Of a stretch of 64,000 nucleotides of DNA, positions 37,201 to 40,200 are shown piece by piece (positions within the stretch are counted from its first letter, which is position 1; each line of letters starts with the position of its first letter). The DNA comes from Escherichia coli (GTDB taxonomy: Bacteria > Pseudomonadota > Gammaproteobacteria > Enterobacterales > Enterobacteriaceae). Position numbers: made by a program. The stretch is from NCBI RefSeq assembly GCF_003018255.1, contig NZ_CP027440.1; one strand, given 5' to 3'.

Positions 37201-40200
37201 GAATAATGACAGTGGCGTTAGACTTTGCAATCCCACGCACTACGGGGGCAAATCCGTTTTGGCTGGCAGGCAACATATCGTTATCGGTATACAAGCGTGC
37301 GCCACGAATTTGCGTACTGTCGAAGATATCGCTCGCCGTCCACGTATCACCTATCATAATCTGGCTTCTTAACGCAGCTATATCACGTTGTATCCAGGTG
37401 CTTATAGAGTTGTATTCTGCACTGCCATCGGTCGTATTTAAGGTGCTGTAATTGCGTAATCGCCACGGCCCAATATTCAGTCCATTGCGCAGATTGAGAT
37501 AACTGGTATCTGTCTCTTGTGAACCATAATCCGAACGTAGAGTATGTGAACCAGAAAAATCGTAGTTGATGGTGAGCGCGTTAATCCCCTCATCCCAACG
37601 CGAGGGGCTGATGTAATCATAAGCCATCGCATCCATATAGATTTGGGGAATGGAGATATTCAGTTGCAGTTTATCGCTGTCGAACTGCCATGATGAGCCT
37701 TCAATGCGTGGCCCAGGATCAATACAGACTGTTTCATCTACATCATTGAGCGATTTCAGCGCATCAACTTTTACGCCAAAGGTGGTTAGCGTTTTTTTAA
37801 TAGCGACAAAGCAGGCGTGTAAATCAGCATCGGGATTATCCTGAACAAAGGTCACATCCTGACGTTCAAACATTTTACCGTTGATAAAAATATCAACGCT
37901 ATAAACACCAGGGGGCATCAGGTTTGCCCGATTAAACTGGCGAATATCGACTCCGGATTGATGGTCGATTTCCAGAAGCGCCGGATTGAATACACTGACC
38001 TCGGCCATCAGGCTTTGCGAGAAAATCAGACACGTCCCTGCCGTGAGGCCAACCACTATTCTGGTCGTCATCATAATACGCCTATCCTTATCCCTTGCTT
38101 ATAGCGTCATTTTTATCGGGTCACTGACTGCGCCGTAATCATTAATAAATCGCCAGGTCATTTGACCTCCCGCAGAATTAGCAGGTAAAGGTAACGTGAG
38201 CGTTTCAAAAGGACGGATCATGTTGAGGGGCACATCATGACCATCAACGATGACATCCATCACACTGATATGAATCGGGTTGGGATTCTCTGCAATCAGG
38301 TTTCGCCCTTCCCGGTGCCACTTCACCTTCGGTGCAGCATCTTCGGGAATCAGGCGAATGCTTGCCGGTCGCCAGAACAGCTTGATACGCGTTTTAACTG
38401 CGATTTCCAGTGAGTTCGCCGCTTTGTTGCTCGCAGAGGGCGGAATATTTTTAATATTCAGCCAGAAGACTGACTCGCGATCATCAGGCAATGACACACC
38501 TTTGGTATGAATAATGCGTAATACTTTTTCTTGCGCGGGTTCTAATCGTGATACCGGAGGAATAACGGTAAACGGTGCTTTGCTTTTATCCTCTTTATTA
38601 AACGGATCTACCCATGCCTGGATGAGATAAGGAATTTTTTCTTCCTTGCTAAATACAGAAATAGATTTATCTGGGTTATTACTTAAGTAAACTACCCGTG
38701 TACCACCAATGACAACGCCTGCATAGGTTAATGCTGGTTGGACTAAAAAAACACTGAGTATAATCGCGGTAAATAACTTACATGAAACGGTTGTTTTAAA
38801 GAGCCTGATTAAACAACTTTTTCTGGACATAACGACTCCCTGGCCAAAGCCAACTGAATAAAAAGGCCCTTGATAAATTATTTCTTATATTCGACAGTAA
38901 ATTGTGAATCGGCGTTCGCCGTACCCGCCGTTACGGTTGCATTGGTTGCCACATAGCGTGCAATAAACTTCATTTCAGCCTTGCCTTCAGCGTCGATAGC
39001 GGTATAGGCAGAATCGTTATAAAGTTTAACCTGCGAGTTATCTGACTGGTTAAAAATACGAATACCGACACCCGTTGCCGCAATCGCTTGTCCTGTACCG
39101 GTAAAATCGCCAGGGTTGCCCGCTGTAAGCGGCGTACCCACTTTCAGGTCGCCGTCGCCGCCAGGCGCTTCTGTACCATCAAAACGAACGGCTGCCTGAG
39201 TGTAGGTTGCCGGGCACTTTTCAAGTTTAATACTGAACTGCTGTGGTGACGCCAGACTACCTACACCTGAAAATGCATTTTTACTGACTTTACCCAGTGG
39301 GACGGTTTGATCGGCTGTATCGGAGGTAACTTCACAAGTAGTGTCGACAATTTCACCGACGAAGTGAACAACACCATCTTCTGCCAGTGCATGTCCGGCC
39401 AGCATTAAAGATGCCAGAGTGAATGCACCGCCTATAATATTACGCTTCATAAAAACTCCATTGATATAATATATCCTTTACCATGAATCATCACTTATAT
39501 TAATAAGTGTATTTTTGATCCAAAGGAATAGTACACCAAAGAGACAACTTTATCCAAAAATAATATTAATCACTCAATCTTAAATATAAATTATTATTTA
39601 AATATTATTAAAACAGCAAGAAATCAAGTTTATTATCAGACATTAGCAATAATTCAGAATATATTTATATCAATGGGCATATGAATAATGGAATTATTGA
39701 TATCACTTATAAAAAAGGGCCGCCGGTCGGCAGCCCTTTTCTATCAACGAGAGATATTACTCAACCGTAACCGATTTCGCCAGGTTACGCGGCTGGTCAA
39801 CGTCGGTGCCTTTGATCAGCGCAACGTGGTAAGCCAGTAGCTGCAGCGGAACGGTGTAGAAGATTGGTGCAATCACCTCTTCCACATGCGGCATCTCAAT
39901 GATGTGCATGTTGTCACTGCTCACAAAACCCGCATCCTGATCGGCGAAGACATACAACTGACCGCCACGCGCGCGAACTTCTTCAATGTTAGATTTCAGT
40001 TTTTCCAACAACTCGTTATTCGGCGCAACGACGATAACCGGCATATCGGCGTCAATCAGCGCCAGCGGGCCGTGTTTCAGTTCGCCCGCAGCGTAGGCTT
40101 CAGCGTGAATGTAAGAGATCTCTTTCAGCTTCAATGCACCTTCCAGCGCGATTGGGTACTGATCGCCACGGCCCAGGAACAGCGCGTGATGTTTGTCAGA

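What the first reader, a model, noticed from the sequence alone, without database searches (positions are those of the whole stretch)
39451..39711. About 260 bp extremely AT-rich leader upstream of the fimbrial major subunit gene
The region between the glmS terminator and the lpfA start is dominated by A/T tracts (for example aaatataaattattatttaaatattattaaaac) and contains no ORF. Such curved, AT-rich DNA in front of horizontally acquired fimbrial operons is typically H-NS-bound and silenced, and often carries the switchable promoter. It lies back to back with the glmS terminator, so read-through from glmS cannot drive the operon because the genes are on the same strand and downstream of the terminator.
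Basis: partly seen in the sequence, partly recalled or inferred. Interest (0 to 1): 0.35.

Follow-up and report, generated by a model that had tools for sequence, protein, structure and literature searches.

The report
AT-rich control region of lpf fimbriae
This is the very AT-rich non-coding stretch in front of the known E. coli long polar fimbria operon (lpfABCD-O113) in the glmS-pstS island; it most likely holds the operon's promoter and is a target of the H-NS silencer, which is ordinary for imported fimbrial genes, and it is not a flip-switch.

Summary
Window 39451-39711 is 78.2% A+T. That makes it the most AT-rich 261-bp block of the 64-kb window, against 59.4% A+T for pooled non-coding DNA. 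It has no credible ORF. It lies on the minus strand between a strong glmS terminator (39709-39744) and the lpfA start codon (39450).

The operon is the known lpfABCD-O113 (Stg/"lpfB1") type, in the glmS-pstS island. Its leader is found in 1,962 of 5,426 complete E. coli genomes.

The H-NS idea is plausible and has partial outside support. Published H-NS ChAP-seq in strain SE11 shows binding that depends on this four-gene island, but it does not resolve the leader.

The "switchable promoter" idea is not supported:
- A 12-nt inverted repeat exists, but its upstream arm is not conserved in the main allele.
- None of 1,927 genomes carries the inverted orientation.
- No recombinase gene lies nearby, no paired GATC sites are present, and no Fur box scores above chance.

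The promoter is unmapped. The best candidate is a conserved TACTAT (39528-39533), followed after 6 nt by a stem-loop. The O157 lpf2 leader has the same layout.

Mobile elements repeatedly hit this short stretch: Tn7 in the terminator, and IS1 or an IS1 composite transposon in the leader.

Verdict: real, ordinary, and of a known kind.

The parts
39757..41586 (-). glmS (glutamine-fructose-6-phosphate aminotransferase), the upstream gene on the same strand
   Evidence: ORF found. A 100%-identical RefSeq record annotates it as glmS.
39709..39744 (-). Intrinsic terminator of glmS, carried by the island. Stem GGGCUGCCG/CGGCGGCCC with A-run and U-run flanks. It differs from the K-12 glmS terminator.
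   Evidence: Inverted repeat I1. RNA fold -27.3 kcal/mol, z = -5.5, with 0 of 200 shuffles as stable. K-12 sequence diverges immediately after the glmS stop codon. The O157 lpf2 island has a homologous terminator.
39732..39736 (-). attTn7 insertion point (GGGCT), inside the terminator stem
   Evidence: Strain HN68 carries Tn7 (tnsABCDE, intI2, dfrA1-sat2-aadA1) here, with a 5-bp duplication GGGCT located 21-25 nt after the glmS stop codon.
39451..39711 (-). The AT-rich leader: the presumed promoter, silencer and 5'-UTR region of lpfABCD-O113
   Evidence: 21.8% G+C, the lowest 261-bp block in the window. No credible ORF. Present at 80% or more of its length in 1,962 of 5,426 complete E. coli genomes.
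39580..39613 (-).
39649..39670 (-). Block ATATAAATATATTCTGAATTAT, invariant in six alleles. It contains the -10-like TATATT (39658-39663) of distal promoter candidate TTCATA-16-TATATT (39658-39685).
   Evidence: Alignment A1. Promoter-like site with 9 of 12 matches. The scan as a whole found 5 sites against 2.7 +/- 1.7 expected, so this is only a candidate.
39528..39556 (-). Proximal promoter candidate: TGGATA (39551-39556), 17-nt spacer, TACTAT (39528-39533)
   Evidence: TACTAT and its flank GGTGTACTAT are invariant in ten lpfO113 alleles. The O157 lpf2 leader also has TACTAT. Each hexamer matches the consensus at only 4 of 6 positions. No transcript start was found in any data I could read.
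39537..39545 (-). IS1 target site (GTCTCTTTG) used in EAEC 042
   Evidence: In EAEC 042 a ~25-kb IS1-flanked resistance/mer composite transposon splits the leader here, with a 9-bp duplication.
39484..39522 (-). Two-tier stem-loop: outer stem UGGAUCA/UGAUUCA, inner stem CACUUAU/AUAAGUG. It starts 6 nt after TACTAT.
   Evidence: -10 kcal/mol, z = -3.3; the O113:H21 allele gives z = -3.8. 97.6% of alignment cells are paired and there is one compensatory pair, but 51 of 500 shuffles do as well. The O157 lpf2 leader has TACTAT, then 7 nt, then a hairpin of different sequence. The segment was chosen after seeing the fold, so the evidence is weak.
39458..39469 (.). Proximal arm of the perfect 12-nt inverted repeat (CCATTGATATAA). 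It overlaps the ribosome-binding region.
   Evidence: I3. Chance frequency 4.1% in Markov simulations.
39665..39676 (.). Distal arm of the 12-nt inverted repeat. It is not conserved in the B1/O113:H21 allele.
   Evidence: No genome carries the inverted orientation.
39456..39459 (-). Shine-Dalgarno GGAG, 5 nt upstream of the lpfA ATG (39448-39450)
   Evidence: Read directly from the sequence. Conserved in 9 of 10 alleles.
38878..39450 (-). lpfA-O113, the major fimbrial subunit
   Evidence: ORF and RefSeq annotation WP_000827811.1.
34471..38830 (-). lpfB (38099-38830, chaperone), lpfC (35552-38074, usher) and lpfD (34471-35541, minor subunit/adhesin)
   Evidence: ORFs and RefSeq annotation.
34224..34330 (-). 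pstS promoter with pho boxes. K-12 homology resumes at about 34330, which marks the far end of the island.
   Evidence: Comparison. Direct repeats TGACAGTTATATG / TGACAGTTTTATG at 34291-34325.

Best explanation
The segment is the cis-regulatory region (promoter plus 5' UTR) of the chaperone-usher operon lpfABCD-O113, also called Stg, 'lpfB1' or the lpf2-locus type. This operon occupies the horizontally acquired island between glmS and pstS in about a third of E. coli.

Shown: the island brings its own strong glmS terminator, so the operon must be transcribed from within these ~260 bp.

Inferred:
- The extreme AT content, dense TpA steps and predicted curvature make the segment a nucleation site for H-NS (and StpA/Hha). 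Their filament occludes the promoter and keeps the fimbriae off in standard culture. Expression would need counter-silencing or specific environmental input.
- The core promoter is most likely the conserved TACTAT at 39528-39533. That would give a ~70-nt 5' UTR beginning with a stem-loop that may stabilise the mRNA.
- Most of the upstream ~180 bp acts through composition rather than specific sequence. It diverges at about the synonymous rate.

It is not an invertible or Dam-dependent phase switch.
For: Identity and context:
- 100% match to RefSeq records annotated glmS | lpfA-O113, lpfB, lpfC, fimbrial protein, pstS.
- The island is 44.2% G+C against 52-53% for the flanking genes.
- K-12 lacks the island, and homology breaks right after the glmS stop codon and resumes at the pstS pho boxes.

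Composition:
- 21.8% G+C, the lowest block in the window, and lower than the bgl silencer region in the same window at 30.7%.
- TpA steps about 3.2-fold enriched, and the longest A/T-only run in the window.
- Predicted curvature in the top ~1% for 39471-39640.

Terminator: -27.3 kcal/mol, z = -5.5.

H-NS:
- ChAP-seq in SE11 attributes H-NS signal on pstS to the adjacent SE11-specific segment ECSE_4015-4018 (PMC4720273). In SE11 that segment is lpfABCD-O113.
- In O157, H-NS binds and silences lpf1 and Ler relieves the silencing, as summarised in PMC4288034.
- In EAEC 042, lpfC belongs to the Aar/H-NS-dependent gene set (PMC5570504).

Promoter candidate:
- GGTGTACTAT is invariant in ten alleles.
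- The O157 lpf2 leader has the same order of elements: TACTAT, 6-7 nt, then a hairpin.

Neutral-like divergence: the intergenic region is 86.7% identical between the window and O113:H21. Third codon positions are 88.5% identical in lpfA and 86.3% in the glmS 3' end.
Against: - No H-NS occupancy or hns-mutant expression data resolve this leader. The SE11 evidence is at island level and was flagged on the pstS side, not the glmS side.
- The published high-affinity H-NS 10-mer is not enriched: 1 match with up to 2 mismatches, against 3.5 expected.
- The promoter is not mapped. Consensus scanning is uninformative in such AT-rich DNA: 5 sites against 2.7 +/- 1.7 expected. TACTAT and TGGATA each match the consensus at only 4 of 6 positions.
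- Stem-loop covariation is weak: 1 compensatory pair, and 51 of 500 shuffles do as well. The 105-nt proximal leader as a whole is not unusually structured (z = -0.55).
- The curvature estimate uses wedge parameters I recalled from memory.
- STEC strains with 99-100% identical operons differ about 10-fold in lpf expression without a significant hns difference (PMC6033998). H-NS alone therefore does not explain the regulation.
Confidence: 0.65

Rival explanations
1. The leader is an invertible or otherwise phase-variable promoter switch, of the fimS type (inverted repeats plus a recombinase) or the pap type (Dam/Lrp), which turns the fimbriae on and off.
For: A perfect 12-nt inverted repeat (39458-39469 / 39665-39676) brackets 195 bp of the leader. 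Only 4.1% of Markov simulations give a repeat that long. Near-identical operons differ about 10-fold in expression between strains (PMC6033998).
Against: - A query with the bracketed segment inverted matched none of 1,927 leader-bearing complete genomes at 80% or more coverage, while all matched the forward form.
- The distal arm is not conserved in the dominant B1/O113:H21 allele.
- No recombinase gene lies between glmS and pstS.
- No fimS-like TTGGGGCCA repeat occurs in the leader.
- There is only one GATC site, and it is absent from most alleles.
- The operon has four structural genes and no papI/papB-like regulators.
Confidence: 0.03
2. H-NS is not the main control. The AT-richness is mostly a neutral legacy of the foreign origin of the island. 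The operon is governed by specific regulators acting on the proximal ~100 bp, for example iron/Fur, bile or pH as reported for the O157 lpf2 operon at the same locus.
For: - Iron, the Fur protein and bile salts participate in O157 lpf2 expression (Arenas-Hernandez 2014, as cited in PMC4288034), and it is about 4-fold higher at pH 6.5 than at pH 7.2 (same study, as cited in PMC6313751).
- The proximal ~150 bp of the two leaders are weakly homologous (z = 3.9).
- The upstream part diverges at the synonymous rate.
- In EAEC 042, lpfC is still detectably transcribed although an IS1 transposon separates the upstream ~175 bp from the gene.
Against: - No Fur box: the best match is 12 of 19, against a chance mean of 12.5.
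- The lpfO113 and O157 lpf2 leaders differ greatly in length (261 vs 699 bp) and in sequence, so regulators cannot simply be transferred from one to the other.
- Island-level H-NS binding has been observed in SE11.
- The two explanations are not exclusive: silencing plus specific counter-silencing is the usual arrangement.
Confidence: 0.2
3. There is no dedicated promoter. The operon is expressed by read-through from glmU-glmS across a leaky terminator, and the leader is just spacer DNA.
For: glmS and lpfA are co-directional and only 306 bp apart. No promoter stands out statistically.
Against: - The terminator is strong: GC-rich stem, U6 tail, -27.3 kcal/mol.
- The last ~55 nt before the ATG and the TACTAT block are invariant across alleles.
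- In HN68 and EAEC 042, 14-25 kb of transposon DNA separate glmS from lpfA, yet the operon is retained intact and lpfC is transcribed in 042.
Confidence: 0.05

Closest known systems
lpfO113 / Stg / 'lpfB1' fimbrial operon of E. coli in the glmS-pstS intergenic island (Doughty 2002, as cited in PMC6033998)
   Same: It is this operon: same four genes, same chromosomal site, and 100% identity to RefSeq records annotated lpfA-O113 to lpfC-O113. The window carries the allele with LpfA WP_000827811.1, also found in EAEC 042. PMC6033998 reports operons ~89% identical to the B1 form in phylogroups D and F. The window leader is about 87% identical to the B1/O113:H21 leader.
   Different: Nothing structural. 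I found no published promoter map or regulator study for this leader in the papers I could read.
O157:H7 lpf2 (OI-154) regulatory region at the same locus
   Same: Same insertion site. Homologous island-borne glmS terminator (GGGCTGCC...GGCGGCCC). AT-rich leader at 28% G+C. Shared proximal motifs: GGT(A)GTACTATT, GATCAAA and AATGGAGTT. A hairpin starts 6-7 nt after TACTAT.
   Different: The O157 leader is 699 bp against 261 bp and is otherwise unalignable. The proteins are only 42-63% identical (PMC6033998). The O157 operon has a duplicated lpfD and a chaperone pseudogene. Fur, iron and bile control was reported for lpf2 (cited), but no Fur box is detectable here.
O157:H7 lpf1 promoter, silenced by H-NS and relieved by Ler (Torres 2007 and Rojas-Lopez 2011, as cited in PMC4288034 and PMC5357955)
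   Same: An AT-rich leader of a horizontally acquired long polar fimbria operon. This is the model on which the H-NS reading rests.
   Different: A different locus (OI-141) and an unrelated leader sequence. Ler is LEE-encoded and absent from many lpfO113 strains, so a different counter-silencer would be needed.
bgl operon silencer (phoU-bglG intergenic region, window 29382-29642)
   Same: The textbook H-NS-silenced AT-rich promoter region, present in the same window as an internal benchmark at 30.7% G+C. bgl is classically activated by IS1/IS5 insertion (my own knowledge). The lpf leader has likewise been hit by IS1.
   Different: The lpf leader is more AT-rich (21.8% G+C). Whether the IS1 insertions activate lpf is untested.
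fimS invertible element of type 1 fimbriae
   Same: A short AT-rich promoter segment upstream of a fimbrial major-subunit gene, bracketed by inverted repeats.
   Different: No flanking recombinase, the repeat is not conserved, and no inverted form was found in 1,927 genomes. This leader is not a member.

Membership tests
lpfO113/Stg chaperone-usher operon leader (glmS-pstS island) | Lies between the glmS stop codon and lpfA-O113, followed by lpfB, lpfC, lpfD and pstS | tested here: met
   The same layout is seen in O113:H21, SE11 and HN68.
H-NS-silenced xenogeneic promoter region | AT content far above the genome and intergenic averages, with dense TpA steps and predicted curvature | tested here: met
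   78.2% A+T against 49.5% for the window and 59.4% for non-coding DNA. TpA steps 14.9 per 100 bp against 4.7. Curvature in the top ~1%.
H-NS-silenced xenogeneic promoter region | Located in horizontally acquired DNA | tested here: met
   The island is absent from K-12, has sharp boundaries, and is 44.2% G+C against 52-53% for the flanks.
H-NS-silenced xenogeneic promoter region | H-NS occupancy in vivo at the promoter | tested here: inconclusive
   Literature only. SE11 ChAP-seq attributes H-NS signal on pstS to the neighbouring segment ECSE_4015-4018, which is the lpf operon. This is island-level evidence and does not resolve the leader.
H-NS-silenced xenogeneic promoter region | Derepression in an hns mutant | not testable with these tools
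   No lpf genes appear in the top-regulated gene lists in the main text of the EAEC 042 hns study. That paper's supplementary tables were not examined.
H-NS-silenced xenogeneic promoter region | High-affinity nucleation motif TCGWTWAATT | tested here: not met
   1 match with up to 2 mismatches, against 3.5 +/- 1.9 expected for this composition. The motif is not obligatory for H-NS binding.
fimS-type invertible promoter switch | Conserved inverted repeats bracketing the promoter | tested here: not met
   The 12-nt repeat is present in the window allele, but its distal arm is degenerate in the major allele.
fimS-type invertible promoter switch | Both orientations occur in natural populations or assemblies | tested here: not met
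   0 of 1,927 genomes match the inverted construct at 80% or more coverage.
fimS-type invertible promoter switch | Adjacent site-specific recombinase gene | tested here: not met
   Only glmS, lpfABCD and pstS are present. A recombinase acting in trans is not excluded.
pap-type Dam/Lrp phase switch | Two GATC sites about 100 bp apart, plus PapI/PapB-like regulators | tested here: not met
   There is one GATC site, which is changed to GAATC in eight of the ten aligned leader sequences (six of the eight distinct alleles). No regulator genes are present.
Fur-repressed promoter (as reported for O157 lpf2) | Fur box close to GATAATGATAATCATTATC | tested here: not met
   Best match 12 of 19. Simulated sequences of the same composition average 12.5.
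Rho-independent terminator | GC-rich hairpin followed by a U run, immediately after the stop codon | tested here: met
Known structured RNA (Rfam) | Match at a family's gathering score | tested here: not met
   Only sub-threshold hits: MicX at 21.7 bits against a gathering score of 75, and BjrC1505 at 22.6 against 50.

The most novel reading that the evidence does not exclude
Two readings remain open.

(1) The upstream ~175 bp may act as a bgl-like silencer, and the IS1 or transposon insertions seen in nature may uncouple the core promoter from it. In EAEC 042 the insertion has a 9-bp duplication ending 3 bp upstream of TACTAT. On this reading, mobile-element hits in the leader are adaptive 'on' mutations for the fimbriae.

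(2) The lpfO113 and O157 lpf2 leaders both have a hairpin starting 6-7 nt after the conserved TACTAT, with different sequences. This may be a conserved 5'-terminal element that controls mRNA stability or translation of the Stg/Lpf2 family.
Probability: 0.15. Interest if true: 0.3.

Novelty: already known. Interest (0 to 1): 0.12.

Why it matters
It matters little as a discovery. AT-rich, H-NS-targeted leaders in front of acquired fimbrial operons are textbook. This operon and its chromosomal site were described in 2002, and H-NS binding to the island in a commensal strain is already recorded in a published supplement.

The practical value is modest:
- The promoter of lpfO113 is widespread (about 36% of complete E. 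coli genomes), and lpfA is used as a pathotype marker. I found no map of it in anything I could read.
- The analysis gives concrete candidates: TACTAT at 39528-39533, a distal TATATT at 39658-39663, and a stem-loop at 39484-39522.
- It removes the invertible-switch idea.
- It shows that the ~300 bp after glmS is a recurrent landing pad for Tn7 and IS1-borne resistance DNA. Such insertions could alter fimbrial expression in multidrug-resistant lineages such as EAEC 042.

Tried and rejected
- **Invertible switch.** Built the inverted form of 39470-39664 and searched 5,426 genomes. None carries it. Rejected.
- **Fur box.** No match above chance.
- **H-NS high-affinity 10-mer.** Not enriched.
- **Dam/Lrp switch.** A single, non-conserved GATC site.
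- **fimS-type repeat TTGGGGCCA.** Absent from the leader.
- **Rfam.** Nothing near a gathering score.
- **Sigma-70 consensus scan.** Not above shuffles, so it cannot place the promoter.
- **Small ORFs.** Only four of 20-50 aa, with TTG starts or antisense. Rejected as genes.
- **Whole proximal leader as structured RNA.** z = -0.55. Only a local hairpin stands out, and covariation support is weak.
- **Cross-species footprinting.** My single genome-contig scan used an 18-nt degenerate pattern that was too unspecific. It returned only chance hits in unrelated taxa. The scan was wasted and I drew no conclusion from it.
- **Allelic diversity of the O157-type leader.** The 355 genomes carrying it are all 95% or more identical, so it could not test the hairpin by covariation.
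- **Literature not held.** Arenas-Hernandez 2014 (lpf2 regulation), Doughty 2002 (lpfO113) and Rojas-Lopez 2011 (lpf1/H-NS).
- **EDL933 Cappable-seq supplements (PMC10469882).** No start site in the lpfA2 leader appears in the stored text, but the files are truncated. Inconclusive.
- **Sakai dRNA-seq paper.** No supplements are held.
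Full report
**1. What is there**

All genes in this part of the window are on the minus strand. In the direction of transcription the order is:
- glmS, 41586 to 39757
- a hairpin terminator, 39744 to 39709
- the flagged segment, 39711 to 39451
- a four-gene chaperone-usher operon: 39450-38878, 38830-38099, 38074-35552 and 35541-34471
- pstS, 34223 to 33183

A 421-bp query across the segment matches RefSeq E. coli chromosomes at up to 100% identity. Those records annotate glmS, lpfA-O113, lpfB-O113, lpfC-O113, a fimbrial protein, and pstS. 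The window is therefore E. coli DNA around oriC. The operon is the lpfO113 (Stg, 'lpfB1') type of long polar fimbriae, not the O157 lpf1 operon.

The leader itself is present at 80% or more of its length in 1,962 of 5,426 complete genomes. The window's allele (99% identity or more) occurs in 164 of them. The common B1/O113:H21 allele, in 1,581 genomes, is about 87% identical.

**2. Check of the observation**

The 261 bp are 21.8% G+C. That is the lowest value of any 261-bp window in the 64 kb; only 0.014% of windows are as low. A rough gene map gives 40.6% G+C for pooled non-ORF DNA. The next most AT-rich intergenic regions are phoU-bglG at 30.7% and the tna leader at 34.7%.

The leader holds the longest A/T-only run in the window (34 bp, 39580-39613). 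TpA steps occur at 14.9 per 100 bp against 4.7 window-wide.

A wedge-model curvature calculation places 39471-39640 in the most curved ~1% of 120-bp segments. I wrote that calculation myself with parameters recalled from memory, so it is indicative only.

Only four ORFs of 20-50 aa overlap the intergenic region. None has a credible start or context.

The terminator is real and strong: -27.3 kcal/mol, z = -5.5, with a U6 tail.

**3. Origin of the segment**

K-12 has 313 bp between glmS and pstS. The window's sequence departs from K-12 two bases after the glmS stop codon. It rejoins K-12 just upstream of the pstS pho boxes, at about 34330.

The island therefore replaced the K-12 terminator and the native attTn7 spacer, and it carries its own glmS terminator. 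The island is 44.2% G+C against 52-53% for its neighbours.

O157:H7 Sakai carries a different operon (lpf2) at the same place. Its terminator is homologous (GGGCTGCC....GGCGGCCC). Its leader is 699 bp at 28% G+C and is largely unalignable with this one.

**4. Is it a switch?**

CCATTGATATAA at 39458-39469 is the exact reverse complement of 39665-39676, with 195 bp between the arms.

Sequences simulated with the same first-order composition reach 12 nt in 4.1% of trials, so the repeat is mildly unusual. Three tests argue against function:
- A synthetic query with the bracketed segment inverted found no genome covering 80% or more of it. The native form does so in 1,927 genomes.
- The distal arm is not conserved in the dominant allele.
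- No recombinase gene lies in the island.

A pap-like mechanism also fails. The leader has a single GATC site, absent from most alleles, and there are no regulator genes. No fimS-type repeat is present in the leader.

**5. H-NS**

The composition is what H-NS prefers. The published 10-bp high-affinity motif, however, is not enriched.

*Outside evidence.* Higashi et al. 2016 (PMC4720273) mapped H-NS by ChAP-seq in K-12, SE11 and SE15. Their Methods and S6 Table list 42 core genes that scored as H-NS-bound only in strains with a neighbouring strain-specific segment. One of these is pstS, with the SE11 insertion ECSE_4015-4018 and nothing in K-12 or SE15. In SE11 the only four genes between pstS and glmS are lpfD, lpfC, lpfB and lpfA of the O113 type. 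H-NS therefore binds this island in vivo. The data as held do not say whether the peak covers the leader.

*Related operons.* For the O157 lpf1 operon, H-NS silencing and relief by Ler are established, as cited in PMC4288034. [quoted passage not shown] A second review cites pH 6.5 and bile. I could not obtain that primary paper.

*Fur.* A Fur-box scan of this leader gives a best match of 12 of 19, which is the chance expectation. Fur control cannot be carried over to this leader.

*EAEC 042.* lpfC is among the genes lowered in an aar mutant, and that paper's authors attribute the effect to H-NS-family proteins (PMC5570504).

**6. Where is the promoter?**

Consensus scanning is uninformative here: 5 sites against 2.7 +/- 1.7 in shuffles. 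Conservation helps more.

Across ten alleles the last ~55 nt before the ATG are almost invariant. So are GGTGTACTAT (39537-39528), AATTAATATT (39571-39562) and a 22-nt block at 39649-39670. Overall, though, the intergenic region is 86.7% identical between the window and O113:H21. That is close to third codon positions of lpfA (88.5%) and of the glmS 3' end (86.3%). Most of the leader is therefore constrained by composition at best, not by sequence.

The proximal 150 bp align weakly with the O157 lpf2 leader (z = 3.9). They share GGT(A)GTACTATT, GATCAAA and AATGGAGTT.

In both leaders TACTAT is followed after 6-7 nt by a hairpin:
- Here it is a two-tier stem-loop at 39484-39522: -10 kcal/mol, z = -3.3, and -3.8 in the B1 allele.
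- In O157 it is CUGAUC...GAUCAG, followed by a second hairpin.

On the ten-allele alignment, 97.6% of cells pair. All one-sided changes give G-U pairs and there is one compensatory pair, but 51 of 500 shuffles do as well.

My working model is that TACTAT is the -10 element, transcription starts at about 39521, and the mRNA begins with a hairpin. I hold this at roughly even odds. A distal candidate, TTCATA-16-TATATT (39658-39685), sits in the invariant 22-nt block and would give a ~200-nt UTR.

No start site for the O157 homologue could be found in the stored parts of the EDL933 Cappable-seq tables, which are truncated.

**7. Mobile elements**

The ~300 bp after glmS have been hit repeatedly:
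- **HN68.** Canonical Tn7, with a class 2 integron, sits in the terminator stem. It has a 5-bp duplication GGGCT at 39732-39736, which is 21-25 nt after the stop codon. TnsD targeting therefore works even though the insertion-point sequence differs from K-12.
- **EAEC 042.** A ~25-kb IS1-flanked composite splits the leader with a 9-bp duplication GTCTCTTTG (39537-39545), ending 3 bp upstream of TACTAT. The composite carries cat, a Tn21-like mer module, a class 1 integron and tetA.
- **EC07.** An IS1 in the leader is accompanied by loss of lpfA and the 5' part of lpfB.

Genome-wide, 16 of 1,992 genomes have the leader in two distant places and 30 have less than 80% of it.

By analogy with bgl, whose H-NS-silenced promoter lies in this same window and is classically activated by IS insertions (my own knowledge), such hits might change lpf expression. 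That is untested.

**8. Verdict**

The interpretation as an H-NS-prone regulatory leader of an acquired fimbrial operon is reasonable and partly backed by published data. The 'switchable promoter' suggestion is not supported.

The feature belongs to a well-known kind, in a long-known locus. Interest is low. The only mildly new points are the candidate promoter-plus-hairpin layout shared with lpf2 and the recurrent transposon hits.

Noticed in passing
window 39732-39736 (locus L015 1909-1935 and 15990-16010): In strain HN68, canonical Tn7 (tnsABCDE, intI2, dfrA1-sat2-aadA1) is inserted between glmS and the lpf leader. It has a 5-bp duplication GGGCT inside the terminator stem. attTn7 therefore still functions in lpf-island strains, although the insertion-point sequence differs from K-12.
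   Followed up: yes
window 39537-39545 (L012 13180-13190; L013 14200-14215): EAEC 042 carries a ~25-kb IS1-flanked composite transposon (cat, Tn21-like mer, class 1 integron aadA1/sul1, tetA) inserted in the leader. It has a 9-bp duplication GTCTCTTTG ending 3 bp upstream of the conserved TACTAT. About 175 bp of AT-rich leader are thereby separated from lpfA.
   Followed up: partly
L009 3060-3800 (corresponds to window ~39690): Strain EC07 has an IS1 in the leader about 50 bp after the terminator, with deletion of lpfA and the 5' part of lpfB. Across the collection, 16 of 1,992 genomes have the leader split into two distant places.
   Followed up: partly
window 39757-40453: The last 700 bp of the core gene glmS are only 95% identical between the window and the O113:H21 allele, and 86% identical at third codon positions. 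To my knowledge that is high for a core gene within E. coli. It suggests the glmS 3' end travels with the lpf island by homologous recombination.
   Followed up: no
window 26513-28462: bglF appears interrupted. It is split into a 489-aa ORF (26993-28462) and a 143-aa ORF (26513-26944), where RefSeq relatives have a single ~625-aa gene. This is probably a pseudogene in this strain.
   Followed up: no
window 29382-29642: The phoU-bglG intergenic region, the classic H-NS-silenced bgl promoter, is 30.7% G+C. It serves as an internal benchmark, and the lpf leader is considerably more AT-rich.
   Followed up: partly
window 53548-53925: The mnmG (gidA)-mioC gap, where oriC lies in E. coli, is in this window at 43.4% G+C. 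The window therefore spans the replication origin.
   Followed up: no
window 43119-43466: The atpC-glmU gap is 348 bp here. The otherwise 100%-matching strain 200164 has an IS200C copy there, giving a gap of 1,065 bp. The window therefore comes from a different strain.
   Followed up: no
window 39451-39460 and alignment A2 columns 101-113: Small length and sequence polymorphisms next to the ribosome-binding site: one allele has U4 instead of U5 between GGAG and the ATG, and another has GGGG for GGAG. The terminator U run varies between 5 and 7. These could affect translation or termination efficiency.
   Followed up: no
literature: PMC6033998: The lpfB1/lpfO113 operon was expressed 9.9- to 12-fold higher in HUS-associated than in non-HUS STEC isolates. 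The operons are 99-100% identical and hns levels did not differ significantly. This is unexplained; I did not compare leader alleles between those strains.
   Followed up: no
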